From positions 359,476,001 through 359,540,000 of the forward strand of contig OZ024742.1 of the NCBI GenBank assembly GCA_964016885.1: a stretch of 64,000 bases of DNA, written 5' to 3'. The first letter of the stretch is position 1. Every line of letters starts with the position of its first letter. Source of the stretch: Eledone cirrhosa (taxonomy: Eukaryota). The position numbers and the translations under genes were made by a program. Under the pieces are notes generated by a model, which saw only the letters and a list, made by a program, of their open reading frames with translations, was not told the origin of the DNA and ran no database searches. Shown here one piece after another: positions 1 through 62,180 of this stretch.

Positions 1-788
<788 letters not shown>

Positions 789-973
789 TATAATGCTCCA
801 TTTAATTTACAAATTAAGGATAATATACCTAAAAAATTCTTTAATATCCTAGAGAAGAACTTCCCGCCAAACCACAAATACCATCAAATTTTAAATAGAT
901 CAACGGTTAAATTCTCCTACTCAACAACCAAAAGCATTAAAAAAAATATAAGTGCCTACAATGTAAAAAAACC

Positions 974-1465
974 ATGAGTATACCACCAGTACATCAAACT
1001 AACCATAATATCTCCTCGGATACAGGATTCACGAAAAATTGTAACTGTAGAAACAAGGCAAACTGCCCATTAAAAGGAAATTGCCTTGTTAATAACATAG
1101 TATATAAATGTAAAGTTAACACTAAGGACTCAATTTATTCATATATAGGAGCTACCTCTAACAAATTTAAGGTAAGATTTAAGACCCACAAACATAGTTT
1201 TAAAAATGCCGCACTAGCTAATACAACATCTCTAGCTGAAATAATTAATAATTATAGAAAAAGGAATATAGATTATGACCTGACCTGGAGTGTGCTCAAA
1301 AGGGCCACCCCTTATCAAAATAATAGATATGAATGTAGATTATGTTCCCAAGAACTTTTTGAAATAATGAAATCTAAGGATATCCTATTAAATAAGCGAC
1401 AGGAATTAATAATATCGTGTAATCATAAACTGAGAAAAAACTTTAAATATTATAAACCTAATTAA
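974..1465 (+). pseudogene. PLE GIY-YIG endonuclease domain (C-terminal fragment of a truncated ORF)
   Basis: NIVYKCKV...YSYIGATSNKFKVRFKTH; the same frame continues upstream from about 790. Confidence 0.85.
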
Positions 1466-1754
1466 TATACACTTTAGAAATTAATATATAAACTTTTTTT
1501 AATTTAGTTAACCTATAATTAATATTCTACTACTGATGAACTACATAATTTTACTTTCCTTCTTACAACTATCATTTCCTAAAACTGATACCATTAAGTA
1601 AACATATATAATGCTTTAATTCCAGGTTATGACTCTATGTTCCTTGAAATCTCTATATATTTATTATTTCTCACTAATAATTTTAACTCCCCCCCCCCAA
1701 TAATTATATGTATGTGTATGTATGTATGTGTGTATATATATATATATGTATATA

Positions 1755-2679: not shown

Positions 2680-2745
2680 ATTTTTTTAATATAAGGAACT
2701 GTTTCTTTGTTTATTCATTACTTTATTAATTTATATATATATATA

Positions 2746-2936
2746 TAACGAAGGAGGTGTGGTAAGGAACCAGATGGACCATAACGCACCAGAGTACTCA
2801 ATACTTAGGGTAGTAGAGAGGGTAATAGGAAAAGGTTTGACCCCGACGGCAGAGCTCAAGCTGTTTCGACGGCTATTTTTTGACCAGAAATAGCCGTCGA
2901 AACGGCTTGAGCTCTGCCATCGGGGTCAAACAAGTT

Positions 2937-2941
<5 letters not shown>
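2746..2941. mobile_element. Mini fold-back insertion of the PLE family-A terminus in (TA)n
   Basis: Long minus arm and short plus arm of the sequence at 15471-15610, centre about 2882, TA tracts on both sides. Confidence 0.9.
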
Positions 2942-3451: not shown

Positions 3452-3834
3452 AACAGCGTAGATGTAATTCATTTCGCGCAGAAGTTTTGTTCAAATTTAT
3501 TGCGGAAATTTTGTAAGTTCAATTTAAATTTTGATACTATTGTGTAGCTTGACCCCCCGTCTGAACTGTCAGGCGGTGGGTCAGCTCATCTTTACCCCTC
3601 CTAGGGGTAAAAAAACTGTTTTTAAAAATTTTGTGGCATAAAAAAATGTCAATCGTCTACAGAAATGTTAAACGAAGCTAACGAAAATAGTGGTGGGGGA
3701 CAGCGGTAAGAGTTGTAAGCTCGCACGCTTTAGTCCCCCCTTCCTTCCCAACTAACGTCATAGAGAAGGAAGGAAAAAATAAAATAAAAACAGACGAATC
3801 TGCGGAGAAAAATGACGAAAACACAAATCTGGAC

Positions 3835-5475
3835 ATGGATTCCAACAACGAAAAAAAAAATTTTGAAAAATTGCATGACAATATTAATACCACAAACAAA
3901 GACACAACAAACACAAAAATAACACTTGAAAACAACATCATAACAGAAAGCAAAGCAGACGACAAAGTCAACACCAATAAGATTTCGTTTGCACAAACAA
4001 CAAAGAAATCTTTGACATATATACCTGAAAATATTTCAGATGTGGCACAAAGAATTGCAGACGCCAAACAATATATAACTGAAAGAGAGAATGGTATTTT
4101 ATCGGTAAAAATGCCTCAAGAACTCACCAAAGACATTGAAAGTCGAACGGTCCTTTTCCGCACCATCAACAGCACTTATAAAAAATCTGAACAGCCAACT
4201 TAAACAGATATCAAAACAGTACTCACAGAAGTACTTAATGAAACCACTTTCATAAGAAAAGACAGACTGTATGGAAGCCTAGCGATTATTATGAAGAATG
4301 AATCGGCGGCAAAAAAATGTGCTTTGTCACCGATTCGTTCGAAAAATTTTACCTTTTATCCATCTTATATGGGGAAAAGAACTCAACGCATATGGCTGGA
4401 TGCAATGATGCCAGATGTGGACTACTGCTGGCTCATAGCTGGCTTCATCGATCCAGCGAATGACAACGTGATTTCCATTGGGAAAACCAAAGGCAATGCG
4501 TTCAGTGGAACAGGTATAGAGCTTGTAGTGCAAATGAAGCCTGAACGCATTGCCCAAATACCCGACAGAATCATATTAGAGGGCCACGGGTATATAAACA
4601 TTAGCGTGGAGGGGAGAAGACCGTCCTGTCATATTTGTGCAGGCAGAGGGCACCTGAAGGCGGCTTGTCCCCAACTCAACAAAAAGAAAACCCTGCTACC
4701 AACACCAGCTCCACCACCACCACCACAACAGATAAACAAACAACAAAACTCAGTCCCACCCAACCCGTCCCTCAGTAAAACTACACCACCACCACAACAC
4801 AAACAGTCACAACACATTACCCCAAAACAAAATACAGGCCCACCCAACCCCTCACTCAATAAAACAACACAACCACCGCAGCCACAACACACAACACAGT
4901 CTAACATAGTGACAACCATCTCCCCCACAAAGAAAACCAACAACACGGAAACATTACCAGCAAACATACCTCTTCCCTCCAACACTGAAGATAACCCAAC
5001 GAATTCGGAGGAAGAAACGGAGTCCTTCAGACAGATTAAAAGGAAAAAAAGAAAACATGTGCAAAACACACAAGGCCAAACAACCCCCACCCAAATGTCA
5101 ACACAATCCAACAAAACACAAAACACCCCTCCAGCAACAAACAAAACAAAACCTGCCCCTCCCCTCTTCGAAACACTCACACCATCCGAAAAAAAGACAT
5201 TACACTATACTTACATCAACAGAAACAATAATAAATTAAATGAACTCATATACAATAATCCTTCGGTACAAACCGAAGGTGTAAACTTTGTTTCGTCAGA
5301 AAACTACCCACATTTAAAATTAATAAAAATCCCAATGAACCTCTACCAAAAACTAAAAAAGGATTTTAAGGAGGACGTAGGACCACCCTCCGTCAAACCC
5401 ATAAACCGCGTCCTACTAAAAAGATTTTCCCCTCCCCCTCACAACTCCAAACACCCCAACCCCACCACACACTGA
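3835..5475 (+). pseudogene. Tx1-like ORF1 (gag-like zinc knuckle, Pro/Thr/Gln-rich tail) with a premature stop at 4201
   Basis: CHICAGRGHLKAAC matches CX2CX4HX4C; TAA at 4201 corresponds to CAA in the second copy. True start and end are uncertain. Confidence 0.8.
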
Positions 5476-5599
5476 CGACCCCACACCACCACAAGACACC
5501 CCTTCACCCAACACCCCCGACCCCATGGAAGTCGTGCAACCCGAACCCCGGGAAGCGGAAAGGTAGGTCTCTACACTCTCCTTTGGCTCTGCCGCCCAC

Positions 5600-8500
5600 A
5601 TGGATGTGTTAAGAGTAGGATGTTTGAATGCACGTGGCCTGGGCTCAACTTGGAAGCAAGCAAAGCTTCTAAATGACCTCAGGTCATGTAGTATAAATGT
5701 AATGGTTATCTGTGAGACTCGAATCAGCGTCGTGCGGCAGCTGGCCCCCACCTTCGATGACTTTGAGGTGCATGCATCTCTCTGTCAACCTGGAGGTGGA
5801 GTGGGGTTGTCGTACTGCTGCAAAAACACCTGGGTCTTGCCGTACAGGTTGTGCACTCGGACCCGGAGGGTCGTTTGTTGGTGCTAGACGTTGGCAGTAG
5901 TGAAAGTGCGGCCTTGAGACTGGTCGCCGTCTACTCCCCTTTCGGAGCTGAACGGCCCGACTTCTTCCAGCGTTTGGAGACTTTTCTGGGAACGTCGCGT
6001 TCCCTGCTTCTAGCGGGGGATTGGAATGACATCCTGGATGCACGTTGGGACTATGCAGGAGCATGTCCTAATAGAGGGGGGTGTAACAGCCTCAAGGGGT
6101 TACTCGACCGTTTTAACTTGGTCGATAGATATCGACTAGATTTTCCAACTGTGCCTACCTGGACTTGGAGAAACCACAGTGGTCAATCTAGATCGTACTT
6201 AGATAGATTCTTAGTTAGAAGTAAGGATAGGGACATATTAAGCTGTCCAGAAATGCGCACGGTTGGCTACACGGATCACAAATTAGTGACCTGCGTGGTC
6301 AATCTCGAGAAAACACATAGACAGGGTCCCGGTTACTGGAAACTTAATTTGTCTTTACCGGCAAAAGAGACTTACAGAAACCGGATTAGCAGATTAGTTA
6401 AGGAGAGGTTGACGGGTGCAATCGTCAACAACCGATGGTGGACATCTCTCAAAAGAGAGATTAGAACAGAATCAATAAGTTATAGCAAGATGTTAGCTGC
6501 CGATAGGAATAGAAACGAGAAAGAATTAACAGGTAAATTAGAAGAGGCAATCAAGAGCGAAGATGTGGCCAGAGTGCTGGCATCGAGGACGGCCTTGAAC
6601 CAGTTTTTCGATGCAAAGCACGAAGGCTGCGTCATTCGAAGTAAAATACGTGCTCTAGGTAATGAGGGGGCCAAAGCCGTTGGATGGGCCCGCGTGACAG
6701 AAGCTAAGAGTGGAAATCGATCCACCATCCGGTCGTTGCAAGACGAAGATGGACGGGTGATCCGGGAGCCTAAGCAGATGTGCGAGGCCTTTCAAAGGCA
6801 CTTTGCCCGATTGTTCGGGGGAGGCGAGGGTCCGGGCGGGGGCGTGGATTTCGGTCCATACCTCGACGGCCTGCCGCGTCTCTCGAACGAAGAGGCAGAG
6901 TCCTGCGAGGGACCAATCTCGGCTGATGAGATCGGAGATGCGCTGAGCCAATGCAGCAGACGCAAATCTCCAGGTCTCGATGGTATACCTTACGAACTTT
7001 ATTTAGCAATGCCGGTCTTCTTCTCCGAACTCCTCGAAGCGGTCTACTGCAATTGGCAGCAGAACGGGAGAATTCCTTGTTCTGTAGCCAAGGGCGTAGT
7101 CACGCTGGTGAGGAAGGACGAGAACAAGGGGGATAGTATAAATAATTTTCGGCCCATAACCCTGCTAAACACAGAGTTAAAGATTTTGGCCAAGGTGTTA
7201 GCAAAGAGGTTTGCGCTTGTCGTGGGTGGCCTGGTGGGAGATGCGCAGACATGTGCTATCCCATCCAGGTCCATTCACGATAACCTCCACCTCATGCGAT
7301 ACATCATAGAGAGGGTTGGCAACAAACCCGGCTTCGGTGGGGCCCTGATCAACTTGGATCAGTCTAAGGCCTTCGATAGGGTCGACCATGGTTACCTGGA
7401 TGCGGTGCTAGCGGCGGCTGGGTTCGGTCCTGTTTTCAGAGGCTGGATCACTGCCCTACATAGCAACCACATCTGTTCTAGGATCAAGGTGAACGGCTAC
7501 CTTTCGAAGCCGTTCGAAATCACACGATCCATTCGACAGGGGTGCCCTCTCTCCTCCCTTCTGTACGTATTGACTCTCGAGCCTTTACTGAGGAAGTTGG
7601 AGTTGTTGCAGGGTATCCCCCTGGAACCAGGATTGAGCAAAGCGGTGTCGGCCTACGCCGATGACGTAACAGTAATGGTATCAACCGACTCGGAGATCGA
7701 GGCGATCGGTACCTTACTGGAGGAGTACGAAAGGTTGTCAGGAGCGAAACTGAACCGGGAAAAATCCATCGGGCTGCAACTCGGAACGTGGAGAGGCAGA
7801 CCGATGCCTCCTGACGGTGTCGTCGGACACTGGACGGAGGGCCCGGTAAAGTTGCTTGGGGTCTGGTTTGGACCGGACCTCCAGGTGGAAAAGAACTGGA
7901 ACGCGGTTACGAACAAGGTGTTTGCACTAACCCAGAAATGGGCCAAGTGTAAGCTGTCCCTAAAAGGCCGGGCGGAGGTGGCGAACATTTACATAGCGTC
8001 CGTCACTTACTACCGCCTGACTGTCGTGCCTTGCCCTAAGGAAACACTCACCACCATGGAACGCATGCTCTTCCAATTTCTTTGGAAGAAGCGTCCTCCT
8101 ATGGTGAGAAGATCCATCTGCTGCCAACAACCTTCGAAAGGAGGGCTGGGGATGCCGTGGTTGATGATGCGTAGGCACGCATTAAGGCTACGGCACCTAC
8201 AGGTATTCCTCACTGGTCAACCGGTGTGGACTCCGTTCGTGAAACGAGCCTTTCCGAGACTCGTCTCGCTCACCGAGCTACAGTCCTGGGTCAAGGAAAG
8301 ATCCGGAAAACTGGGAGACTGGCACACTGGGTGTGCTCAGGCGCTCAGGGCTCTCTGGCAAGCGGGCCGGGCCATCGGTGGAGAATCCACCTCAGCATTC
8401 TATAGAGGGCTGGTGGCTAGCAGGGGAGATGACACCCTTGGAGAGTCGCTGGACATGGAAGAAGACGAACTGGCCAGCCTGTTCGGTAGGACTTTCGGCC

Positions 8501-9036
8501 CAGGACCAATGGACAACTTCCAGAAGTCACTGGCCTGGCAGTGCTACCGGGGGGCTCTACCCGTTCGAGAGAGGCTCTACAGACACGGGCGCCCGGGCAG
8601 GGATCCCTCAAAAAAGATTTGCCCTAGATGCGTGCGTCACGAAGAAACCGTTGCGCACGCATTGGTGCAATGTCCGGGCGTGGCTGATCTGTGGGGCTAC
8701 GCCGAACGACTGCTGTCGCGGGTGGCGCCGATTAAATTGACCGCCGAGTCCGTGATGACAATCAAACCGCCTCCCCTCTTCACAAAGGAAGCAAAGGCGG
8801 TTTTTCTGTGCGTAATAGCCATGTTGAAAGAGGTTGTTTGGTGGACACGATTGAAAGGTCTGAGGTCAGGCAGCTTCCTCTCTGGCCATAGTCTGGTCTA
8901 CTTCTTCCGATATCACTTCGGAAGAAGGATAAGAATGGAGAGAGAGGTGCTTGGCCACAGGCAGTTTTATGAAAGGTGGGTGATAGTGGCGAGAATGGCT
9001 CGTGTAAATGGGCCTTCTCTGTATACCATCCTGTAG
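5600..9036 (+). CDS. Tx1-like ORF2: APE endonuclease, reverse transcriptase, C-terminal CCHC; one frameshift near 5800-5850
   Basis: CLNARGL, ICET, LAGDWN, YLDRF, TDH (APE); FRPITLLN, LDQSKAFDRV, QGCPLS, AYADD (RT); CPRC-x8-H-x4-C. Confidence 0.93.
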
Positions 9037-9289
9037 GTAAAGAAGTAAAGGAGAGGGGAGCACCTTCTCCATGTGCTCCCCGGGCAAAGGATTGCACACT
9101 TTTTCGGGGGTGTGTGCAACCCCCATCACGTCCCCTCCCTTTTGAGGTTATTTTCGATTATTTTCATGTTACACCCTTTTTACTCGATTATATGTAAACT
9201 CCCCCTTTGTATTTGTCCCTTCTTTTTATGCCTTTATGGTAAATAAAGAAATCTATCTATATTTCTATCAATCTAGCTGTCGTCTGTTC

Positions 9290-11450
9290 TACAGTGTGGA
9301 TGTAATTCACTTCGCACAGAAGTTTTGTTCAAATTTATTGAGGAAATTTTGTGAGTTCAAACTTAATTTTGATACAATTGTGTAGCTTGACCCTCCGTCT
9401 GAACTGTCAGGCGGTGGGTCAGCTCATCTTTACCCCTCCTAGAGGTAAAAAACCTGTTTTAAAAAATTTTGTGTAAAAAATTTCAATCGTCTAACAGAAA
9501 TGTGAAACCCAGCGAACGAAAATAGTGGTGGGGGGACAGCGGTAAGAGTTGTAAGCTCGCACGCTTTAGTCCTCCCTTCCTTCCCAACTAACGTCATAGA
9601 GAAGGAAGGAAAAATTAAAATAAAAACAGACGAATCTGCGGAGAAAAAATTAAATGACGAAAACACAAATCTGGACTTGGATTCCAACAACGAAAAAAAA
9701 AAATTTGAAAAATTGCATGACAATACTAATAACACAAACAAAGACACAACAAACACAAAAATAACAGTTGAAAATAACACCATATCAGAAAACAAGGCAG
9801 ACGACAAGATTTCATTTGCACAGAAAACAAAGAAATCTTTGACTTATATAGCGGAAAACATTTCAGATGTGGTACGAAGGATCACGGACGCCAAACAATA
9901 CATAAGTGAAGGAGAGAATGGTATTTTATCGGTAAAAATGCCTCAAGAATTCACGAAAGACATTGAAAGCCGAACGGTCAAGTTTCGGACCATCAACAAC
10001 AGTACAAAAAAACCTGAACAGCCTTCTCAAGCAGATATCAAAACAGTACTCACAGAAGTACTTAATGAAACCACTTTCATAAGAAAAGACAGACTGTATG
10101 GAAGCCTAGCAATTATCATGAAGAATGAATCGGCGGCAAAAAAATGTGCTTTGTCACCGATTCGTTCGAAAAATTTCACCTTTTATCCATCTTATATGGG
10201 GAAAAGAACTCAACGCATATGGCTGGATGCAATGATGCCAGATGTGGACTACTGCTGGCTCATAGCTGGCTTCATCGATCCAGTGAATGACAACGTGATT
10301 TCCATTGGGAAAACCACAGGCAATGCGTTCAGTGGAACAGGTATAGAGCTGGTAGTACAAATGAAGCCTGAACGCATCGCCCAAATACCCGACAGAATCC
10401 TATTAGAGGACCACGGGTATATAAACATTAGCGTGGAGGGGAGAAGGCCGTCCTGCAATATCTGTGCAGGCAGAGGGCACCTGAAGGCCGCTTGTCCCCA
10501 ACTCAACAAAAAGAAAACCCTGCTACCAACACCAGCTCCACCACCACCACCACAACAGACAAACAAACAACAAAACTCAGTCCCACCCAACCCGTCCCTC
10601 AGTAAAACTACACCACCACCACAACACAAACAGTCACAACACATTACCCCAAAACAAAATACAGGCCCACCCAACCCCTCACTCAATAAAACAACACAAC
10701 CACCGCAGCCACAACACACAACACAGTCTAACATAGTGACATCCATCTCCCCCACAAAGAAAACCAACAACACGGAAACATTACCAGCAAACATACCTCT
10801 TCCCTCCAACATTGAAGATAACCCAACGAATTCGGAGGAAGAAACGGAGTCCTTCAGACAGATTAAAAGGAAAAAAAGAAAACATGTGCAAAACACACAA
10901 GGCCAAACAACCCCCACCCAAATGTCAACACAATCCAACAAAACACAAAACACCCCTCCAGCAACAAACAAAACAAAACCTGCCCCCCCCCCCCTCTTCG
11001 AAACACTCACACCATCCGAAAAAAAGACATTACACTATACTTACATCAACAGAAACAATAATAAATTAAATGAGCTCATATACAATAATCCTTCGGTACA
11101 AACCGAAGGTGTAAACTTTGTTTCGGAGGATAAGAATGGAGAGAGAGGTGCTTGGCCACAGGCAGTTTTATGAAAGGTGGGTGATAGTGGCGAGAATGGC
11201 TCGTGTAAATGGGCCTTCTCTGTATACCATCCTGTAGGTAAAGAAGTAAAGGAGAGGGGAGCACCTTCTCCATGTGCTCCCCGGGCAAAGGATTGCACAC
11301 TTTTTCGGGGGTGTGTGCAACCCCCATCACGTCCCCTCCCTTTTGAGGTTATTTTCGATTATTTTCATGTTACACCCTTTTTACTCGATTATATGTAAAC
11401 TCCCCCTTTGTATTTGTCCCTTCTTTTTATGCCTTTATGGTAAATAAAGA
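9290..11450 (+). mobile_element. Second, internally deleted copy of the Tx1-like element (5' UTR + ORF1 joined to the last about 320 bp)
   Basis: Colinear with 3452-5295, then jumps at about 11125 to the equivalent of about 8926; same 3' end followed by (ATCT)n. Confidence 0.93.
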
Positions 11451-14961: not shown

Positions 14962-15420
14962 CCTCGGTTTTATATATATAGATGAAAGGAAAAGGTGACC
15001 AGAATGTAGAAGGACCGTAACGAAAGACTACAATGCATTTCATCTAATGTACTCCCCCACCTAACCACCACCAATCACCCACCAAACCACCACCAAACCA
15101 TTACCAAACCCCCACCAAACCACCACCAATACCCCACCAATCAGCCACTAAACCGCCACCAATCACCCACGAAACCACCACCAATCCCCCCACCAAACCA
15201 CCACCAATCAAAAACCAAACCACCACCAATCACTATCCTTAGAATCTGCTGTATACATATCACTTTCAACGCTTGACCGCTCCACTCACTCCTCTATTGT
15301 TCTACAGGCAAGTTCAGCCACCCCTACCGCCCACCAAATGCCATGATAGACTTATTTGTGTTTACAACAAATTTTAACCAATCCTCTTGACAACTACAAT
15401 CTTCCCATATAAGGAAGTAC

Positions 15421-15514
15421 CCCCTTGACAAGTTCGGCTATTTATTCACCAGGCTAAAAATTCTAATTTAGTCCAGAAATAGCCGTCGAAACGGCTTGAG
15501 CTCTGCCGTCGGGG
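15421..15514 (+). ncRNA. Type I hammerhead ribozyme, U3:A8 core variant (5' pLTR)
   Basis: cccc TTGACAA g..cggctattt...aaatagccg.c GAAA cggc ttgagctct gccg TC gggg. Confidence 0.8.
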
Positions 15515-15700
15515 TCATACTTTTTCCTATTTCCCACTCTACTACCCTAAGTATTGAGTACTCTGGTACGTTATGGTCCATCTGGTTACTTACCACAATT
15601 CCTTTGTTATTTAGCTCCTATCTCTGTAGTAGAGCACTTTCCGACTCTACTACGCCATATCCCGACTTTTCCACCCAGCTCAAGTTTCTTCACCCGCACG

Positions 15701-17837
15701 ATGCGAAAACACAACATCGACTTCTCCACCAAGAACATCCCAGTTCCACCGAGAAAACTTTACCTTTGGATGCTCACGCAAGAAATCGACCTTTTTGCGA
15801 AAAGACTAAGATGGAGAACTTATTTCTACGAAAGATACCGCGACAATCAGGGCTTCAACACCAAGGAGAGATTCGGATTCAATACCTACAAATCTCCCCC
15901 ACCAAATCCTATGCTTTCACCCTTCGAGAACGACCTTTTTCACCTGGTCAAGAGCATTAAATTCAAACCCAGACACAACAGATTCCTACAACAACTCCGT
16001 TGCAAAATAACAGAGTATGAAAACACTAACGACATCATGGTGCACTCGGACAAAACTGGAAACCTCTACTGCGTCAACCCTGACAGATACCACACACTGA
16101 TCAGGAGCAGCCTAAACTCCACATATAAAAAGGTTAACCATTCAATTATCGAGGACATAAATCGAGATGGACAACAAATTACCTCCAGACTCGGGGTCGC
16201 CGACCGCACTGAACCCCTAGACCCACGGACTACCTACTTCACACTGAAGGACCACAAATCCGGCTTCGACCGCAAACCATCCATTAGGCTTATAAACCCA
16301 ACGAAGTCGGACATAGGGAGAATCAGTAAAAAGATCCTAGACCGAGTTATACCAAAAGTTAAGCAAAACGTCAGACTTAGACTATGGGTCAGCACCCAGG
16401 AAGTAATCTCATGATTCAGGAATATGGAGGACAAACGAGGCACAAAATTCATCCAGTTTGACATAGAGAGTTACTATGCATCTATTACCTTACCGCTCCT
16501 TATAGCCGCCTTGGACTTTGCCGAAACACTCACACCCATCACTGACCAGGAAAGAAATATCATTCTCCTCGCCAGGAAGACAGTCCTACTTTTCGACAAC
16601 TCCAAGTGGATAAAGAGAGCTCCCGACATCCCCTTCGACGTCAGTATGGGCGCAACGGATTCGGCCGAGGTCACAGATCTTATAGGATTATTCCTACTAT
16701 TTAAACTCACCGAAATGTTTCCTACATTAGGCAGTGGATTGTACCGGGATGATGGGCTCCTCACCCTCAAAGGGTACAACACCAGTAGTACAGACCGGAT
16801 CCGTAAACAACTAATCAACTTCTTCCGGGCTGGGGATTTAAAATCACCCTACAAACGTCCCTAACCCGAGTTAATTTCCTGGACGTTACCCTTAACCTCG
16901 AAAATGATCTGTACTACCCATACAGGAAACTAAACGACAACGCCGTTCTAACCATCCTAGAAACATCACCAATAACCTGGTTAAAAACATCTCACTCCGC
17001 TTATCTCGTTTGTCCGCTAATGAGCAGATATTCAACGAACACGCGCTTCATTACAACCAGGCCCTCAAGCGGAGTGGCTTCCGGGAAGAAATATCCTTTT
17101 ATCCAGCTTCCCTTAGCGGAACCAGCAGGCGACACCGCCGCTGACGCAACGTAACGTGGTTCAATCATCCCCATAATGCCGAGATGGCAACACCTATCAG
17201 GAAAATCTTCTTTCGATTCCTCGAAAAACACTTCCCACTACAACACCGCTACCACAACATAATCAACAAAAACACCATCAAACTCTCCTACAGCACCACA
17301 CCTAACTTCGCACAAAACATCGTCTCCTCAAACAACAAAAAACTCAACCCCTATGGAAGAAATAACCTAGACATCAGTTGAGAGCCGACCAGGAGGTGTA
17401 ACTGCCCTGATAGATCTACGTGCCCCCTCAACAACAAATGCCTAGAACGTAACGTGATCTACCAGTGCAACGTGAGGACGGACACCTCCAACAAAGCTTA
17501 TATAGGATTAACCGCGTGTGACTTCAAGACCCGGCTCTACCAACACCAACATACTTTCTGAAACCCGGTCCGGGGACATGCCCCTACACTTTCGGGCCAC
17601 ATCTGGGACCTCCAAGATAATAATATAACCTACAATCTCACTTGGAGCTTACTGTCCAGAGCTAACTCTTACACGGGAGGACGCCGTCCGTGTAACTTAT
17701 GCTCGGAGGAAACATTACAAATGTTGTTTTCGAAGGACCAACTCCTAAACAAGAAAGACGAACTGGTAACCGCATGCAAACACAGATTGCGCAGGACTTA
17801 CCTCGCCCTCAAACCCCATAACGACTCGGGTGGATAG
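15701..17837 (+). pseudogene. PLE RT + GIY-YIG ORF disrupted by stops and frameshifts
   Basis: FSTKNIP..KRLRWR N-terminus; DKT; QFDIESYY; MGATDS; LYRDD; CNCPDRSTCPL; VIY...AYIG; TGA at 16412, 17379 and 17559; frameshifts between about 16830 and 17150. Confidence 0.9.
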
Positions 17838-18516
17838 GCAAGGGCTGATACCTCCTCCTCACTTGACGAATAAGTTAGGGGAAACTCCAGCTTACATAGG
17901 TAGATGTATCTCTTTTCTTTTCCTCTTTGTCTTCTTCCCTCTGTCTCATCCTATCACTTCCTTCCTCCCCTATTTTCTTCCTCGTCTGCTTTTCCCCTTT
18001 CGCCAGCCCCGATGCAGCCCATCGGGTCTCTGTAGCATCAGTTCCCCCACTCCTGTAATTTTAAGATAGAATTGGCCGAATACGTTTTACTAACTACTTA
18101 TAGCAGATGTGTTAAACCCCTTTAATTTGTATCAGTTTTGTAATTTCTACAAGTTTTTTTCTATTCTCAACTTATTAACCTGTATTTGTAAGATAGCATT
18201 GTGATTTTTTTTAATTCATTTCTCACTATCTAATTTCATATATTTTTTTTTTCTTTCTTTCTAGTATCTTGTATTGTCTCCTACTCTCATTCGATTTACC
18301 TATTCTATAACCTCCCCCACTTCATACACTATCCTTAGAATCTGCTGTATACATATCACTCTCAACGCTTGACCGCTCCACTCACTCCCCTATTGTTCTA
18401 CAGGCAAGTTCAGCCACCCCTACCTCCTACCAAATGCCATGATAGACTTATTTGTGTTTACAACAAATTTTAACCAATCCTCTTGACAACTACAATCTTC
18501 CCATATAAGGAAGTAC

Positions 18517-18610
18517 CCCCTTGACAAGTTCGGCTATTTATTCACCAGGCTAAAAATTCTAATTTAGTCCAGAAATAGCCGTCGAAACGGCTTGAGCTCT
18601 GCCGTCGGGG
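18517..18610 (+). ncRNA. Type I hammerhead ribozyme, U3:A8 core variant (3' pLTR)
   Basis: Same sequence as 15421-15514. Confidence 0.8.
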
Positions 18611-18758
18611 TCATACTTTTTCCTATATCTATCTCTCTCTATATATATATAAGGTGTATAGAGTAGTAGTATATATATATATAATAAGGTGTATACAGTA
18701 GCATTATATATATATATATAATAAGATGTATACAGTAACAGTATATATATAATAAGGT

Positions 18759-18890
18759 GTACTTTATTTTATCGACCCCGTAAGGACGAAAGGCGAAGTT
18801 AACCTCGGCGGAATTTGAGCTCAGATTATAAAGGGGCGTAACTCTATGCTGCAAAGCATGGCGTCCGACCCTCTGCCAATCCACCGCCCT
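18759..18890 (-). mobile_element. tRNA-derived SINE family 1 (octopus-type), 3'-truncated
   Basis: Reverse complement of the family at 22258; degenerate A/B boxes. Confidence 0.8.
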
Positions 18891-23088: not shown

Positions 23089-23240
23089 TTTCCCATCCCT
23101 CATTTTTCTAGCTTTCTCTCACGTCTTTTAATTCTCTTTCAGACCAACAATCACTTCTTTCTGGCTTTCAAATCTTTGCTTTGCCCTTTTTCTCCCCGAA
23201 AGTATGAGCTAAGGCTTTCTTCGGGGGACTTACAATCCCG

Positions 23241-23675
23241 CTGATAATTCAGGTAAGGCATGAATGACATGGCCGTTATATAAGACCTCTGATACTTCAG
23301 GTAAGGCAAGAATGACATAGCCGTTATGTAAGACCTCTGATACTTCAGGAAATGCAAGAATGACATAGCCGTTATATAAGACCTCTGATACTTCAGGAAA
23401 TGCAAGAATGACATAGCCGTTATATAAGACCTCTGATACTTCAGGAAAGGCATGAATGACATAGCCGTTATATAAGACCTCTGATACTTCAGGAAAGGCA
23501 TGAATGGCATAGCCGTTATATAAGACCTCTGATACTTCAGTAAAGGCATGAATGACATAGCCGTTATATAAGACCCCTGATATTTCAGGAAAGGCAAGAA
23601 TGACATAGCCGTTATATAAGACCTCTGATAATTCAGGAAAGGCACGAATGACATAGCCGTTATATAAGACCTCTG
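23241..23675. repeat. 48-bp minisatellite, about 9 copies
   Basis: Unit gatacttcaggaaaggcatgaatgacatagccgttatataagacctct; 16-aa periodicity in ORF 23151..23690. Confidence 0.95.
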
Positions 23676-23784
23676 CTTCAATCCACTCATCTCCGTGTAT
23701 ATATCTATCTTACAATCATTCTGTCTATTACACTATTACATCAACTTCACACTAAGCTCTAGATACAAGTTATAGGCCAATAGG

Positions 23785-25863: not shown

Positions 25864-26037
25864 CGAAGGAAATGTGGTAAGGAACGCACCAAAGTACTCA
25901 ATACTTAGGGTAGTAGAATGGGTAATAGGAACGAGTAGGACCCCGACGGCTGAGCTCAAGCCGTTTCGACGGCTAATTCAGTCCAGAATTAGCCGTCGAA
26001 ACGGCTTGAGCTCAGCCGTCGGGGTCCTACTCGTTCC

Positions 26038-26040
<3 letters not shown>
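25861..26040. mobile_element. Mini fold-back insertion of the PLE family-A terminus
   Basis: Same architecture as 2746-2941, centre about 25980. Confidence 0.9.
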
Positions 26041-26070: not shown

Positions 26071-26768
26071 GTGAGGGTTTTTTTACAAATTGAAAAATAA
26101 CCGAGGTGTCCTACACGAGTGAAAGTATAAAGAAAAAGAGATGAAATCGAAAATGCAACTGGAGTCTTATTTTTGTTTTAAATATATATATTTATTTGGT
26201 TTCTTTACCGGTTACGCAGTTCTTCTGCTTTTCAAAAGGTGAGTTGAGATGGAGGGTCTGTGGTTTTTCTCACATCTGGTTGGTCTCTGAATGTTACTTG
26301 TTTTATATGGAAAAAGTAGCTCGAAATGCCAGGTTTTTCGAGAAGTAATTTGATTGGTTTGTCAATAATTATAATAAATTTCGCGCCAGTTCGCGTTACA
26401 ATAGTTCTTCAAATAAGAGTGGGGGTTGTCACAGGTTGTTTTTTTCATATATGACAAGCCCCCCCCCCCCCCCCCCCCTCTTATTTGAAGAACTATTGTA
26501 ACGCGAACTGGCGCGAAATTTATTATAATTATTGACAAACCAATCAAATTACTTCTCGAAAAACCTGGCATTTCGAGCCACTTTTTCCATATAAAACAAG
26601 TAACATTCAGAGACCAACCAGATGTGAGAAAAACCACAGACCCTCCATCTCAACTCACCTTTTGAAAAGCAGAAGAACTGCGAAACTGGTAAAGGAACCA
26701 AATAAATATATATATTTTTTAAAAAAATAAGACTCCAGTTGCATTTTCGATTTCATCTCTTTTTCTAT
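26064..26768. mobile_element. Fold-back pLTR insertion in (TA)n (about 300-bp arms, about 62-nt tail) with minimal U3:A8 HHRs
   Basis: Arms 26126-26425 and 26474-26768; HHRs at 26202-26239(-) and 26658-26695(+). Confidence 0.88.
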
Positions 26769-30181: not shown

Positions 30182-30232
<51 letters not shown>

Positions 30233-30267
30233 TACAAGTATTAATAAAATAGATGTTCTTTTGATCA

Positions 30268-30330
30268 ATTACATTTTATTATACATATTTCGGATGTACA
30301 ACAGTACGTCCTCATCAGACAAAATATAAT
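30268..30330 (-). ncRNA. Type I hammerhead ribozyme
   Basis: attatattttgt CTGATGA ggacgtac tgtt gtacatcc GAAA tatgta TA ataaaatgtaat. Confidence 0.9.
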
Positions 30331-31951
30331 GATACATAACATACCCTGAGATGTTAAATGGTTAAGTTTTAATCAAAGTAGTGATTAACCTAAGAGAAAG
30401 ATTAACATTTATACCCTAATAATGAGAAAATGCGAAAACGTAATAAATTCATTAGAGAATGTGTGAGTAAGAAAAACGTTGCTTAATGTAACAGTTATAG
30501 AGATTTTAAAATGTATGATACTACAATTTATCTGGGAAAACAGTCAATGAAAGCCACTGGAATAGGATATATAGAGAGGGTAAGATAAGGGGTAATATAT
30601 GTAGAAGGAGATTTTCCGAAAGTTAAACGGTTACGTTTGAAAATATTTAATTTATGCTATTTTAGGGTGAAGAATCAAGATTTTAGTTTTTTTTTTAAAT
30701 TGCTGGTTATTTATATTTATAAGTTTTGTAAATTCTATAAGTGTTTTAACATTTCTAAATTTCGGAATTTTATGAGGATAACATTTAAAGGATTTAGCTG
30801 GCCAGCGGAAAGGAAAGTTTACACTGTTGAATATTTTCCTAAATGTAAACTTTACCGAAGATAATCATTGTCAACATATATGATATGTAAATCTTATAAA
30901 GTACTTATTGTTAGAAATATTTAAATAACGATTATGTTTATAGATATATATTAATGAACCAGTATATTTTAGGAAAATGATAACGAAAATAAAAATAAAA
31001 TAATAGATTGAGGCATGCTAAAGTTAAATATATACCTATATATAACAGGGTGTAAATGCATTAATTATTCATAGTTCGAAATAAATAATAATCAAGAAAT
31101 TTAGAAGTTAACTAAAAATTATTTATATCCATATATACCTCCCTGTATCTTTCTATACATAATTTTTAGTTAACTTCTAAATTTCTTGATTATTATTTAT
31201 TTCGAACTATGAATAATTAATGCATTTACACCCTGTTATATATAGGTATATATTTAACTTTAGCATGCCTCATTCTATTATTTTATTTTTATTTTCGTTA
31301 TCATTTTCTTAAAATATACTGGCTCATTAATATATATCTATAAACATAATCGTTATTTAAATATTTCTAACAATAAGTACTTCATAAGATGTACATATCA
31401 TATATGTTGACAATGATTATCTTCGATAAAGTTTACATTTTGGAAAATATTCAACAGTGTAAACTTTCCTTTCCGCTGGCCAGCTAAATCCTTTAAATGT
31501 TATCCTCATAAAATTCCGAAATTTAGAAATGTCAAAACACTTATAGAATTTACAGAACTAATAAATATAAATAACCAGCAATTTAAAAAAAAAAACTAAA
31601 ATCTTGATTCTTCACCCTAAAATAGCATAAATTAAATATTTTCAAACTTAACCTTTTAACTTTCGGAAAATCTCCTTCTACATATATTACCCCTTATCTT
31701 ACCCTCTGTATATATCCTATTCCAGTGGCTCTCATTGACTGTTTTCCCAGATAAATTGTAGTATCATACATTTTAAAATCTCTATAACTGTTACATTAAG
31801 CAACGTTTTTCTTACTCACACATTCTCTATTGAATTTATTACGTTTTCGCATTTTCTCATTATTAGGGTATAAATGTTAAACTTTCTCTTAGGTTAATCA
31901 CTACCTTGATTAAATCTTAACCATTTAACATCTCAGGGTATATCATGTATC

Positions 31952-32014
31952 ATTATATTTTGTCTGATGAGGACGTACTGTTGTATATCCGAAATATGTA
32001 TAATAAAATGTAAT
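31952..32014 (+). ncRNA. Type I hammerhead ribozyme (mirror copy of 30268-30330)
   Basis: 12-bp stem I with two G-U pairs; CTGATGA at 31964; GAAA at 31991. Confidence 0.9.
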
Positions 32015-32150
32015 TGATCAAAAGAACATCTATTTTATTAATATTTGTATTTTAATATTAATAACCCTGGAAAATTATTTTGACTGTAGAGTGCTTCCAA
32101 TCTACTGTAAAACTCATTCTTTGATATACTCATTGAATCTTGTTTAACTC

Positions 32151-32529: not shown

Positions 32530-32567
32530 CCTTTACCGGTTTCGCAGTTCTTCTGCTTTTCAAAAGG
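32530..32567 (-). ncRNA. Minimal type I hammerhead, intact U3:A8 variant (within pLTR fragment 32397-32603)
   Basis: cctt TTGAAAA gcag aagaa ctgc GAAA ccgg TA aagg. Confidence 0.8.
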
Positions 32568-33411: not shown

Positions 33412-33595
33412 AATAATAATTGTTTCTACTTTAGGCACAAGGCCAGCAATTACCAGTGCATTACTGGTACTTTATTTTATCGACCCCGTAAGGATGAAAG
33501 GCAAAGTCAACCTCGGCGGGATTTGAACTCAGATCGTAAAGGGACGTAACTATGCTGGAAAGCATGGCGTCCGACCCTCTACCGATACTGCCAAT
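33412..33595 (-). mobile_element. SINE family 1 inserted in the left arm only
   Basis: Absent from the mirror position near 35957. Confidence 0.9.
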
Positions 33596-33668: not shown

Positions 33669-36080
33669 TTGTTACATAATAAGGTTATGTTTCCGAGGCA
33701 ATCCAAATTGGATCGACAAGGGAACGGATGAATTGCGTGTTCTTGGGTTTTTTCATCCGCTCCCTTGTGAGTACCAATTCACCCCCACCGGCCTGCGCAA
33801 GCGCATGTCCGAAGGAAGTTGACCATTCTCCACCGCAGACTTCAACGAAATTTGCTTAGTCAGTTCACCCTGTCATCCAAAACAATGGTCCACCAATGCC
33901 TGTACCATATTTTACTGCTACCCATCACGGCTGTGGCAGTCAGCCGAGAGCCAGAGGGGATGGGAGAGTGTTAGTTTTTACAGGTCATAATACTAGCCCT
34001 CACTAAGCGTTGACGGTACGACTGACCATCACCTTATGAGGGAAAATAAACTTATTCTAGGTATCATGGTTTTACGTTGGAAGTTAAGAGTGAGAGTTGG
34101 AAATAAAAATTAAAATCCTAAATCAAATATCAGAAATTATAAATTCAACAATTAAGAAATTAACAATTAGAAATTAAAGAATTAAAAAAAGAATTAAAAA
34201 AATTCTTTTCAGGTGATAATTCGGATTGAGGTGAGTAAAAATATAGACTGAAGTGAGTAAATAATATGGAGAGAGGTGTTTAAGTAATATGTTCTGAGAG
34301 GGATTCTAGTGTCACAGTTACTCTATCCACATATTGTACGACGGTGTCGTACATTATAACTACAGGGCTCCAGGCATTAGTGAATCTGCTACACAGTCCT
34401 TATTTCCATCACATGGAACAAAATCAAAGAAAAACAGACATAAATTACACAAAAGAAAAGAACAGAACCAACAGTGAATAAATGCAAAAACACAGAGTAC
34501 ACATATGATCCATATGATTGTCCATCTGTCCATATATAGGTTGAATTGAGGGGGCCTCTGTTCAAGTGCGATTTGTTGCAGGAAAATAGGGGTTTATACT
34601 ATTATTTCTTTCCGCGTATTTATCCAGCCGAAAGTTATTATTATGTCCGTCCAGTGTAAGGGGTTTCCATCCCCATGGTAGCGGGAATTTCCGGGGTAGC
34701 TTATGGTTGGTTCCTCTCTTCTCCACCATATCGGTTACATCGTAAAGCGCTCAACTATTGGAGCTAAATTATTAGGGTAAACATTGATGCAATTCAATTC
34801 AAGCACTCAACGTACTTACCGATATGGTGGAGAAGAGAGGAACCAACCATAAGCTACCCCGGAAATTCCCTCTACCATGGGGATGGAAACTCCTTACACT
34901 GGACGGACATAATAATAACTTTCGGCAGGATAAATACGCGGAAACAAATAATAGGATAAACCCCTATTTTCCTGCACCAAATCGCACTTGAACAGAGGCC
35001 CCCTCAATTCAACCTATATATGGACAGATGGACAATCATATGGATCATATGTGTACTCTGTGTTTTTGCATTTATTCACTGTTGGTTCTGTTCTTTTCTT
35101 TTGTGTAATTTATGTCTGTTTTTCTTTGATTTTGTTCCATGTGATGGAAATAAGGACTGTGTAGCAGATTCACTAATGCCTGGAGCCCTGTAGTTATAAT
35201 GTACGACACCGCCGTACAATATGTGGACAGAGTAACTGTGACACTAGAATCCCTCTCAGAACATATTACTTAAACACCTCTCTCCATATTATTTACTCAC
35301 TTCAGTCTATATTTTTACTCACCTCAATCCGAATTATCACCTGAAAAGAATTTTTTTAATTCTTTTTTTAATTCTTTAATTTCTAATTGTTAATTTCTTA
35401 ATTGTTGAATTTATAATTTCTGATATTTGATTTAGGATTTTAATTTTTATTTCCAACTCTCACTCTTAACTTCCAACGTAAAACCATGATACCTAGAATA
35501 AGTTTATTTTCCCTAATAAGGTGATGGTCAGTCGTACCGTCAACGCTTAGTGAGGGCTAGTATTATGACCTGTAAAAACTAACACTCTCCCATCCCCTCT
35601 GGCTCTCGGCTGACTGCCACAGCCGTGATGGGTAGCAGTAAAATATGGTACAGGCATTGGTGGGCCATTGTTTTGGATGACAGGGTGAACTGACTAAGCA
35701 AATTTCGTTGAAGTCTGCGGTGGAGAATGGTCAACTTCCTTCGAACATGCGCTTGCGCAGGCCGGTGGGGGTGAATTGGTACTCACAAGGGAGCGGATGA
35801 AAAACCCAAGAACACGCAATTCATCCGTTCCCTTGTCGATCCAATTTGGATTGCCTTGGAAACATAACCTTATTATGTAACAAGCTGTCTGGTGATGACA
35901 CGACACTCGCACACAGAACAGTGTGGCCAATGTCGTCACTGAAATATATATCACAGCATTATTATTAAAGGACTTGAACATCTGAAACTACTTCGCTTTT
36001 CCTTATTCGATATTTACTCCGTCACTCCTATGTGGAAAAAGTACGTTGAGTGCTTGAATTGAATTGCATCAATATTTACC

Positions 36081-37210: not shown

Positions 37211-38360
37211 ATATAAATATTTCGTTTCTGAATTTGTTTAGCAAGATTCTTTATCTGAAATCGTGTGTTGAAACCGATATTGTTATACTTTGGGAGGGTC
37301 ATGTTGCCAATAAGAAACACACGCACCAGTTGCTTTCACTTCAATTTATTATATATTTATAAATTTATAAATTTACAAATTTACAAACTTATAAATTTCT
37401 GGTTGGTTGGTTGGTTCCACAACCAGATAGTTGTTTATATATAGTCATAGTCCTTTCGTCACACACTCTGTGACCTCTTCAGTGACTGGGGATTCCTTTC
37501 TTTGTTTCTGTGCCTTTCCTTTCTTCTATCCTACGCCATTTTGTTTCTGTGTGTGTGTTGTGTGCTCAGTTTGCGCATGCGCCACATCCGGGTGTCTGTG
37601 TGTGTTTGTGTTCATTTATTTATTTTTTTATTTATTTATTTATTTATTGTTGGTTGGTTGTTTGTTCTATGTGTGTGTGTGTTTTCATTTTGTCCTGTGT
37701 GTGTTTTCATTTTGTCCTTAATTGTAAGTTGTTTGTTCTATGTGTGTGTGTGTTTTCATTTTGTCCTGTGTGTGTTTTCATTTTGTCCTTAATTGTAAGT
37801 TGTTTGTTCTATGTGTGTGTGTGTTTTCATTTTGTCCTGTGTGTGTTTTCATTTTGTCCTTAATTGTAAGTTGTGATGTTGCTGTTCCACTCATATTTTC
37901 TATTTAATTTTAGTTTTAATTCTTTTATGCTTACTGCCTCTGTAATTTGCCTAAACATTGCGTCTTTTCTGTGTGTGGATTCTATTTTTATTTCTATGTT
38001 CTCTAATCTACCCCTGTGTTCTATCTTAGCATGTTGGTAGAGCACAGATGATTCTTTATTATCTTGGAGGTCTCCCCAGTGTTCATTTATTCGTTCCCCT
38101 ATACTACGAGCTGTCTCACCTATGTACACTATATTTTTGTTTCTACATTGTCCTTCAGTACATCTTATGCTATACACTACATTTCTAGTTTTACAGTTAA
38201 TATGGGGGCTTATTTTACAGGTTATACATTTCTTATCTATACATGAGGGCCTTTGGAACGGGTATGTCTTGCTAATAAGTAATATATAATAAATTGAAGT
38301 GAAAGCAACTGGTGCGTGTGTTTCTTATTGGCAACATGTCCCTCCCAAAGTATAACAATA
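37211..38360 (-). mobile_element. 5'-truncated PLE family B (GIY-YIG end + pLTR) with a short inverted pLTR at 38285-38360
   Basis: ORF 37860..38177(-): IVYIGETARSIGERINEH...RQITEA..LNRK; about 71-bp x3 tandem repeat at 37657-37870. Confidence 0.85.
37443..37487 (-). ncRNA. Type I hammerhead ribozyme
   Basis: agtca CTGAAGA g gtcaca gagtg tgtgac GAAA ggac TA tgact. Confidence 0.85.
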
Positions 38361-38380
38361 TATATAAATATATTTCAGTT

Positions 38381-38437
<57 letters not shown>

Positions 38438-38441
38438 TATA

Positions 38442-38574
<133 letters not shown>

Positions 38575-38604
38575 TATATACATATACATATATGTATATA
38601 TATG

Positions 38605-39164
<560 letters not shown>

Positions 39165-39572
39165 GATATTAAACAAATGGAAACTATATTTATAAAACCA
39201 TATTTATTTCATTATATATGTATATATATAATGTTATCGAAATTCAGCACAATTGCAAATAATAGATAACATGAGTACTGAATGTCTGTCACCAGGTTTT
39301 TGTCATTGAACCGTGGCCATGGTGGTCATCGAACTGTGGCTATGGTGTTTATTGAACTCTTAATCAATTAGATCGATCCTACTTTTCAGCTGGTTCAGGA
39401 TTATGGTGAGATGAGGGAGTTCAAAGTGGAATTAAGTCAAGTTTAAAAGAACTTAAACTTCTCTTATTCGGCTCATTAGCTATTCTACTAACAAGGCCGC
39501 TACATAGATATACGTATATCTATGTATACCTGTCGAGATATATATATATATAATACACACGCACATATGTCT

Positions 39573-39616
<44 letters not shown>

Positions 39617-59580: not shown

Positions 59581-59850
59581 ACAGAGCTGTGAAGAGAAAA
59601 GAAAAGGTGTGTATGAGTATTTAGTTGGTCTGTATCAGCTGTAAGAGTGTATGTTTGTGGGTATAAGAGAGTCATAGGAATCTAGGGGTGAATGTACAAG
59701 CGCGTGAGTTATAAACGTGGCAGAGGGAGGGGGGAGATAATTAAGCATGAATGTATTTTGTGTAATATTAAATAAATTGGGGAGGGGTGTTGAGTCCATG
59801 GAGGAAACAGGACCCAAGGCGATCTGTATATATATATATATATATATATA

Positions 59851-60047
59851 TAACAAAGGAATTGTGGTAAGGAACCAGATGGACCATAACGCACCAGAGT
59901 ACTCAATACATACTTAGGGTAGTAGAGTGGGAAATAAGAAAAAGTATGACCCTGACGGCAGAGCTCAAGCCGTTTCGACGGCTATTTCTGGAGTCCAGAA
60001 ATAGCCGTCGAAACGGCTTGAGCTCTGCCGTCGGGGTCATACTTTTT

Positions 60048-60051
<4 letters not shown>
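59851..60051. mobile_element. Mini fold-back insertion of the PLE family-A terminus
   Basis: Centre tctgga-g-tccaga at about 59992. Confidence 0.9.
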
Positions 60052-60098
<47 letters not shown>

Positions 60099-60414: not shown

Positions 60415-60594
60415 CAGGTAGAGTGTGGTAAACACCAGGTAGACCATAACCCACCAGAGTACTCGATACTTGGGGTAGTAGAGTGGGAAATATCAAAAGA
60501 ATCAGGACCCCGACGGCTGAGCTCCGGCGGCTTCGACAGTTAGATCCGGAAGCTGTCGAAACGGCCGGAGCTCAACCATCAGGGTCCTGAATCT

Positions 60595-60662
<68 letters not shown>

Positions 60663-60711
60663 AAGTATGACCCCGACGGCAGAGCTCAAGCCGTTTCAAC
60701 GGCTATTTCTG

Positions 60712-60714
<3 letters not shown>
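60415..60714. mobile_element. Diverged family-A-like mini fold-back (60415-60601) and a single short arm (60658-60714)
   Basis: Same terminus sequence and breakpoint, separated by (TA)n. Confidence 0.8.
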
Positions 60715-60745
<31 letters not shown>

Positions 60746-61710: not shown

Positions 61711-61831
61711 TATATTATTTATGTTCATACATTGAACAAAAGCGCTACCCACGATTTCATGGCCTCATATTAACTATATATTCATATATATACAAACCCC
61801 TTCATACATATGTATATATATATATATATAT

Positions 61832-62180
<349 letters not shown>

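What the first reader, a model, noticed from the sequence alone, without database searches (positions are those of the whole stretch)
15421..15514. Cryptic hammerhead with compensatory U3:A8 core in the pLTRs of a full-length PLE
Seen: the pLTR has no CTGANGA, but cccc-TTGACAA-stem II-GAAA-cggc/gccg-TC-gggg folds as a complete type I HHR with a GUC site. The diverged copy at 29991 changes only the free N7 position of the core (TTGAAAA). Known: C3-G8 is a tertiary Watson-Crick pair and U3-A8 is a tolerated compensatory swap. Inference: PLE lineages scored as lacking HHRs may carry such variants.
Basis: partly seen in the sequence, partly recalled or inferred. Interest (0 to 1): 0.85.

Follow-up and report, generated by a model that had tools for sequence, protein, structure and literature searches.

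The report
Transposon hammerhead that lost its pair
The repeat ends of a decayed jumping gene fold into a hammerhead-shaped RNA with a known swapped core pair, but a third of its genomic relatives spread with that pair broken, so self-cutting is likely weak or not needed for copying.

Summary
15421-15514 and 18517-18610 fold as a type I hammerhead with U3:A8 in the pLTRs of a full-length but ORF-dead Hydra-clade Penelope-like element (PLE). Related families keep the other core bases, vary N7 and show compensatory stem II changes. U3:A8 in PLE hammerheads is already published (Schistosoma, about 1,300 hits; PMC4209133), and Hydra elements were never scored as hammerhead-less. The headline is therefore not new, and its extension to Naiads is unsupported.

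Two things were unexpected. (1) Position 3 does not track position 8 within the family: genome-wide there are 3,158 U3:A8, 1,642 mismatched C3-A8 and 53 G8 copies. The C3-A8 copies form a run of successive subfamilies lying between two U3:A8 groups. (2) Most of the 36,184 matches to the 3' half start inside loop II at a conserved (T/C)AGT, probably the transcription start, and read through the GUC site. Best reading: a genuine but attenuated, probably dimer- or protein-assisted hammerhead whose cis-cleavage is not needed for insertion. Cleavage and transcription are untested.

The parts
15231..15533 (+). 5' pLTR (partial tandem copy of the 3' end)
   Evidence: 98.35% over 303 nt to 18327-18629; 4 internal differences
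15421..15514 (+). Type I hammerhead fold, U3:A8 core, predicted cleavage after C15510
15425..15431 (+). Core U3 U4 G5 A6 N7 A8 A9 (TTGACAA)
   Evidence: sequence; only positions 3, 7 and 8 vary among nine subfamilies
15468..15474 (+). Conserved (T/C)AGT in loop II where most short genomic copies begin; inferred transcription start near A15470
   Evidence: likeness to an initiator element is recalled, not tested
15491..15509 (+). Stem III with near-palindromic loop; can form a hairpin or a self-dimer
   Evidence: cofold -26.9 against -6.5 kcal/mol per monomer
15511..15607 (+). Tail; genomic copies end about 17 or about 97 nt after the GUC site (inferred two reverse-transcription start sites)
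   Evidence: 34 and 27 of 79 halves
15701..17837 (+). Broken RT plus C-terminal GIY-YIG ORF with Hydra-clade motifs (RWR, DKT, CxCx5C, CxxC, CxH)
   Evidence: four premature stops and two frameshifts
18327..18629 (+). 3' pLTR ending in a (TA)n-like target
18517..18610 (+). Second, identical hammerhead; predicted cleavage after C18606
29011..30186 (+). 5'-truncated copy of a related subfamily; core TTGAAAA at 29995, stem I of three pairs, long tail
2742..2941 (.). Short inverted insertion holding only the 3' half of the hammerhead
25883..26040 (.). Short inverted insertion holding only the 3' half
59847..60052 (.). Short inverted insertion holding only the 3' half
60424..60719 (.). Short 3'-half insertions of families B and A
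61808..61954 (.). Short 3'-half insertion

Best explanation
This is a hammerhead fold with a U3:A8 core in the pLTRs of a decayed Hydra-clade Penelope-like retrotransposon, and it is likely a weak, dimer- or protein-assisted ribozyme whose cis-cleavage is probably not needed for the element to copy itself. Shown: the fold, the clade motifs, conservation of 12 of 15 core positions across subfamilies, amplification of C3-A8 and U3-G8 subfamilies, two fixed 3' ends downstream of the GUC site, and a sharp 5' boundary of short copies inside loop II. Inferred: an ancestor swapped C3-G8 for U3:A8; transcription starts at the loop II (T/C)AGT, so the 5' end of the RNA carries only half a hammerhead and only the 3' pLTR holds a whole one; the RT-endonuclease nicks (TA)n DNA, starts reverse transcription 17 or 97 nt downstream of GUC and copies back across an uncut or re-joined site; fast cutting there would sever the template, so slow or conditional cores are tolerated while the overall fold is kept.
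For: Fold and null test. Among eight family-A subfamilies the variable columns are 3 of 15 in the core (positions 3, 7, 8), 0 of 8 in stem I and 0 of 8 in stem III, against 116 of 200 in the upstream UTR and 13 of 36 in loop II. Three two-sided changes in stem II separate families A and B; in 22 aligned copies 85.4% of cells pair against at most 49.6% for slid controls. Counts on one scaffold: U3:A8 3,158, C3-A8 1,642, G8 53, each with reversed-pattern control 0. Trees put the C3-A8 rows as a grade between two U3:A8 groups with positions 3 and 8 masked or the hammerhead removed; one C3-A8 clade is rejected, p-AU 1.5e-5. A small U3-G8 subfamily exists (G8 in 17 of 21). 26 of 30 tail-anchored copies span GUC; 14 of 30 start 12-25 nt upstream of G12 and none between 26 and 98; 73 of 79 halves in a second sample start 11-25 nt upstream. 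In the anole PLE, hammerhead mutants did not affect insertion in vitro and cleavage needed the protein (PMC11167929). Penelope has an internal promoter in its pLTR (PMC2377424).
Against: No cleavage or RNA data. Strong conservation of the other core bases and the return to U3 in the nested A2 clade argue that some catalysis is under selection. The subfamily table was built from copies picked with core-containing patterns; the core-free lists showed no other common variant but only in the first 100 rows each. Conservation downstream of A15470 could come from promoter or protein-binding roles. The outgroup attaches at different places in the three trees, so the direction of the first change at position 3 is not fixed. 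Covariation is modest (pairs changed on both sides: 49 of 500 shuffles as high). 2 of 30 copies start within 1 nt of the cleavage site. Both arms of one insertion were counted separately.
Confidence: 0.55

Rival explanations
1. Fully active and required ribozyme. U3:A8 cleaves well, and C3-A8 RNAs were cut in trans by co-expressed U3:A8 partners through the palindromic stem III dimer, or are rescued by the long stem II and the protein; cut RNA is re-ligated into circles that template insertions.
For: Invariant core and stems; stable stem III self-dimer; U3:A8 ribozymes described as active in vitro and natural (PMC3088659); a second, unrelated PLE family in this genome has U3:A8 in 12,499 matches; circle model proposed in PMC4209133; U3 regained in A2.
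Against: A third of whole-hammerhead copies lack the pair and span several internal nodes; no pile-up of 5' ends at the cleavage site; single and non-G:C double mutants at this pair had low activity in a type III hammerhead.
Confidence: 0.3
2. Catalytically dead relic. Since G8 became A the fold has been kept only as a promoter, protein-binding or RT-recognition element, and U3:A8 is incidental.
For: A8 is fixed while position 3 toggles; conserved blocks extend outside the hammerhead (15405-15415, 15470-15472); insertion does not need cleavage in the anole PLE.
Against: U4, G5, A6, A9 and G10.1 lie about 40 nt upstream of the inferred start and stay fixed while N7 takes all four bases, the pattern expected of a hammerhead core; U3:A8 is the majority state in families A and B and in an unrelated family.
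Confidence: 0.13
3. Chance fold in a repeat.
For: Hammerhead cores are short; a loose descriptor gave 10 hits in the window.
Against: 0 hits in 200 resamples with the strict descriptor; position in both pLTRs; canonical CTGAYGA or CTGAAGA at the same place in related families.
Confidence: 0.02

Closest known systems
U3-A8 minimal hammerheads of Schistosoma mansoni Cercyon PLEs (Cervera and de la Pena 2014, PMC4209133; parts 1-2 of 4 of the text read)
   Same: Type I hammerhead in PLE pLTRs, U3-A8 in place of C3-G8, G10.1-C11.1, palindromic helix III region, over a thousand copies
   Different: Here helix III is a full 5-bp hairpin with a 9-nt loop, helix II and its loop span 56 nt, the host clade is Hydra, and C3-A8 and U3-G8 subfamilies also amplified
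Hydra-clade PLE hammerheads, including Hydra-1_Obim (Craig et al. 2021, PMC8557442; section 11, passages, supplement parts 1-2 and searches seen)
   Same: C-terminal GIY-YIG, RW[K/R], DKT and CxCx5C motifs, (TA)n targets, about 3 kb unit, hammerhead near the 3' end
   Different: All Hydra and Repbase Hydra rows seen in File S2 have CUGANGA cores and short stems II; this family has A8 and a long stem II
Anole Poseidon PAc (Frangieh et al. 2024, PMC11167929; passages and first part of main text read)
   Same: Two tail ends downstream of the hammerhead, AT-rich target, insertions that read through the cleavage site
   Different: PAc has C3-G8 and was assayed; nothing here was assayed
Natural U3-A8 hammerheads (Perreault et al. 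2011, PMC3088659; section 8 read)
   Same: Same covariation at the 3-8 tertiary pair
   Different: That section reports no C3-A8 lineage

Membership tests
Type I hammerhead ribozyme | Three helices around the core, open helix I, cleavage triplet NUH | tested here: met
   GUC at 15508-10
Type I hammerhead ribozyme | U4 G5 A6, A9, G12 A13 A14, A15.1-U16.1 and G10.1-C11.1 conserved, N7 free | tested here: met
   invariant in nine subfamily groups, N7 takes four states; core-free lists
Type I hammerhead ribozyme | Watson-Crick pair between positions 3 and 8 | tested here: met
   U3:A8 in the window copies and 3,158 of 4,853 counted copies; not met in 1,642 C3-A8 copies of sister subfamilies
Type I hammerhead ribozyme | Covariation in helices | tested here: inconclusive
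   three two-sided stem II changes between A and B; stems I and III nearly invariant; 49 of 500 shuffles reach the pair count
Type I hammerhead ribozyme | Helix I-II tertiary contact | not tested
   an extended stem I with an internal loop is predicted; no contact was sought
Type I hammerhead ribozyme | Site-specific self-cleavage | not testable with these tools
   needs an in vitro assay
Rfam hammerhead families | Score above the gathering threshold | tested here: not met
   0 matches in the window
Penelope-like element, Hydra clade | Single RT ORF with C-terminal GIY-YIG, flanked by pLTRs | tested here: met
   GIY-YIG hit is weak, E 0.022; a relative has a 710-aa open frame, 82-86% identical in its two main matched stretches
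Penelope-like element, Hydra clade | RWK-like, DKT, CxCx5C linker, CxxC and CxH motifs; (TA)n insertion; about 3 kb | tested here: met
   RWR, DKT, CNCPDRSTC, CNLC and CKH in the translation against the definition; by-eye match to the paper's Hydra alignment
Penelope-like element, Hydra clade | Placement in an RT phylogeny with reference Hydra elements | not tested
   reference proteins were not available as files
Naiad/Chlamys (hammerhead-lacking PLEs) | N-terminal GIY-YIG, CxC linker before RT, DKA motif | tested here: not met
   the endonuclease is C-terminal and the motif is DKT

The most novel reading that the evidence does not exclude
A PLE lineage kept transposing through several successive subfamilies, leaving over 1,600 copies, with a broken 3-8 pair (C3-A8) and then regained U3:A8. 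Its promoter starts inside loop II, so each transcript begins with half a hammerhead. The ribozyme is tuned down because reverse transcription must cross the cleavage site. The genome holds all four Y3/R8 states on one scaffold, a natural series for testing whether PLE hammerheads need to cut.
Probability: 0.4. Interest if true: 0.65.

Novelty: new variant of a known kind. Interest (0 to 1): 0.42.

Why it matters
What hammerheads do for Penelope-like elements is still open: proposals range from processing and circularisation to mere parasitism (PMC4209133, PMC8557442). The U3:A8 swap itself adds little. The family history does: natural U3:A8, C3-A8, U3-G8 and C3-G8 versions on nearly one scaffold, with copy numbers as a record of success, give a ready set for relating cleavage rate to transposition. 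The start of most short copies inside loop II also predicts that the 5' pLTR hammerhead is not transcribed whole. In practice, A8-type cores are missed by CUGANGA searches and by Rfam, although at least two families here (about 4,800 and 12,500 matches) carry them.

Tried and rejected
Rfam at gathering threshold: no match. Repeat finder on the whole window was swamped by microsatellites. I first read the CTGAGGA copies as a canonical sister subfamily proving clean covariation; rejected, because only 10 of 53 G8 copies are C3-G8 (hand count) and they are scattered tips among C3-A8 rows (5 changes for 5 rows), i.e. post-insertion mutations. A register artefact for C3-A8 was rejected: the same four stem I C precede C3 or U3. 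A peak of 5' ends at the cleavage site was sought and not seen (2 of 30 within 1 nt). Earlier findings for this genome: none. Paper searches: 'hammerhead' with 'U3-A8' found only PMC4209133; 'hammerhead, C3U, G8A' and 'hammerhead, C3-G8, Watson-Crick, mismatch' found none; 'hammerhead ribozyme, G8A' gave two unrelated papers; 'Octopus, Penelope, hammerhead' gave 4 listed, none on this family. I saw no report of an amplified C3-A8 lineage in these searches, but subscription papers are not held. The primary study of 3-8 exchanges (Przybilski and Hammann 2007) was not held and is known to me only as cited. The Naiad check was a text search of four 8-mers, 30 of 35 places seen, and is weak. The supplement of PMC4209133 was not opened; supplements of the 2026 bioRxiv preprint are closed and could bear on U3:A8 in other animals. 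Rows dropped: trees used 104, 61 and 65 of 184 extracted copies (length filters or chosen groups); 201 hits were reduced to 184 by removing duplicates. No protein database search or structure prediction was run.

Full report
Observation. The sequence at 15421-15514 is as described: stem I CCCC/GGGG, core TTGACAA, G10.1-C11.1, a 9-bp stem II with an apical hairpin, GAAA, stem III CGGC/GCCG closed by A15.1-U16.1, and GUC with the predicted cut after 15510. The constrained hammerhead is 1.1 kcal/mol above the minimum-energy fold, and the stretch folds better than 197 of 200 shuffles. A strict descriptor finds it twice in the window, once per pLTR, and never in 200 resamples. Rfam does not detect it. 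The copy at 29991 has N7 = A, as stated, but also a stem I of three pairs.

The element. Two 303-nt direct repeats (15231-15533 and 18327-18629, 98.35%) flank an RT followed by a GIY-YIG domain. The motifs RWR, DKT, CxCx5C, CxxC and CxH, the (TA)n target and the 3.1-kb unit match the definition of the Hydra clade (PMC8557442 section 11), and the RT matches that paper's Hydra alignment by eye. No reference tree was built. The ORF has four premature stops and two frameshifts, so this copy is full-length but dead; a relative keeps a 710-aa open frame. The host is an animal genome of 3.0 Gb; the repeats recall octopus, which is memory and not a tool result.

Is the motif conserved? Yes. With positions 3, 4, 7 and 8 free, the window's subfamily gives 1,216 matches, 94 of the first 100 being TTGANAA (hand count). 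Sister family B (endonuclease about 70% identical) has U3 in 99 and A8 in 93 of the first 100 of 219 (hand count) and three two-sided changes in stem II. More distant relatives, two of which lie beside Hydra endonuclease fragments 50-56% identical, carry canonical CTGAYGA or CTGAAGA at the same place. Among eight family-A subfamily groups only core positions 3, 7 and 8 vary; stems I and III do not vary, while 116 of 200 upstream columns do. In 22 aligned copies 85.4% of cells pair, against at most 49.6% for slid controls, though the count of two-sided pairs is reached by 49 of 500 shuffles. So this is a hammerhead by descent, and U3:A8 replaced C3-G8.

First surprise: the pair is not kept. On one scaffold the genome holds 3,158 U3:A8, 1,642 C3-A8 and 53 G8 copies, of which 10 are C3-G8 and 43 U3-G8 (controls 0). 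A core-free list agrees: U3 60, C3 36, other 4, and A8 100 of the first 100 of 3,873 (hand count). In trees of 104 and 65 copies with positions 3 and 8 masked, and of 61 copies with the hammerhead removed, the C3-A8 rows form a grade between the window's U3:A8 group and a second U3:A8 group nested inside the grade. A single C3-A8 clade is rejected (p-AU 1.5e-5). The root is unstable, so the history is either U to C to U or C to U twice. Most G8 copies are scattered mutants, but one small subfamily has G8 in 17 of 21 matches. In a pairwise mutagenesis of a type III hammerhead all single mutants here, and all doubles except the G:C swap, had low activity (PMC9901934, passages), while PMC3088659 (section 8) calls U3:A8 ribozymes active. 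C3-A8 is therefore expected to cut poorly, yet those lineages amplified.

Second surprise: most insertions hold half a hammerhead. The 3' half has 36,184 exact matches. In 60 fetched regions, 73 of 79 halves begin 11-25 nt upstream of G12, and 61 of 79 end 17 or 97 nt after GUC (paired arms are not independent). Anchoring instead on the tail, 14 of 30 begin 12-25 nt upstream, none between 26 and 98, 5 further up and 11 lower down; 26 of 30 span the cleavage site and 2 start within 1 nt of it. The boundary falls at an AGT that is invariant in all nine groups inside an otherwise variable loop. It resembles an initiator element (recalled), and Penelope has an internal pLTR promoter (PMC2377424, passages). 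A strong RT stop is the alternative, but the apical hairpin there differs between families A and B while the boundary appears at the same place by eye.

Mechanism. Shown: fold, conservation pattern, subfamily states and insertion ends. Inferred: RNA starts in loop II; the protein nicks (TA)n and starts reverse transcription at one of two tail sites, as shown for the anole element (PMC11167929); it copies back across GUC to the RNA's 5' end, giving the many short inverted insertions; long copies need a 3' pLTR that is uncut or re-joined. A fast ribozyme would destroy that template, so a slow or conditional one is tolerated. The palindromic stem III could dimerise, which leaves open cutting in trans. 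I give this reading 0.55, a required ribozyme with trans rescue 0.30 and a dead relic 0.13.

Comparison and novelty. U3-A8 in PLE pLTR hammerheads was reported for Schistosoma with about 1,300 hits (PMC4209133). It is new for Hydra as far as File S2 of PMC8557442 goes, where every Hydra row has CUGANGA. An unrelated PLE family with a C-terminal GIY-YIG in this genome has a minimal U3:A8 hammerhead with 12,499 matches, so the swap recurs. The step to hammerhead-less lineages is unsupported: Hydra was scored positive, relaxed-core searches of Naiads added nothing, and my limited text check found none. I found no report of an amplified C3-A8 lineage or of a start site inside a PLE hammerhead in the searches listed under Tried and rejected. 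Verdict: real feature, known type of core, new variant by its family history; interest 0.42.

Noticed in passing
window 26658-26695 (+) and 32530-32567 (-): Second, unrelated PLE family with a minimal U3:A8 hammerhead (4-bp stem II, palindromic CCGG in place of stem III); 12,499 matches genome-wide, U3 in 99 and A8 in 100 of the first 100; upstream C-terminal GIY-YIG seen in L221.
   Followed up: partly
window 37482 (-), 48917 (-), 54307 (-), 58151 (+), 33045 (+): Candidate canonical CTGANGA hammerheads from a loose scan, probably of other PLE families; some may be chance.
   Followed up: no
window 15032-15241: 11-bp C/A-rich minisatellite abutting the 5' end of the element; absent upstream of the same position in L132 and L158, so probably target or junction DNA.
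   Followed up: partly
window 15387-15393 and 18483-18489: A second TTGACAA lies 38 nt upstream of the core in both pLTRs and in the 29959 copy; no stem II fits it.
   Followed up: no
window 15405-15415: CCATATA(A/T)GGA block, palindromic in most subfamilies, conserved in all nine groups about 60 nt upstream of the inferred start.
   Followed up: no
window 276-1704: Inverted remnant of a more distant Hydra-like family (endonuclease about 40-50% identical); the loose scan found no hammerhead there.
   Followed up: partly
window 3691-11173: Non-LTR retrotransposon with a 1,089-aa endonuclease-RT frame (5767-9036) and a tandem second copy of its ORF1; L1/Tx1 likeness is recalled.
   Followed up: no
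window 18771-18880 and similar at 33467, 22272, 44720, 19939, 44532, 61345: Short interspersed repeat, present several times in the window; SINE identity is recalled.
   Followed up: no
window 23183-23771: Tandem array of about 12 units of 48 bp with open frames on the minus strand.
   Followed up: no
window 37840-41826 and 51097-52972: Fragments of other RT plus C-terminal GIY-YIG PLEs, one with inverted arms 3.4 kb apart.
   Followed up: no
window 30219-32063, 33746-35807, 58380-59048: Long near-perfect inverted repeats typical of PLE insertions.
   Followed up: no
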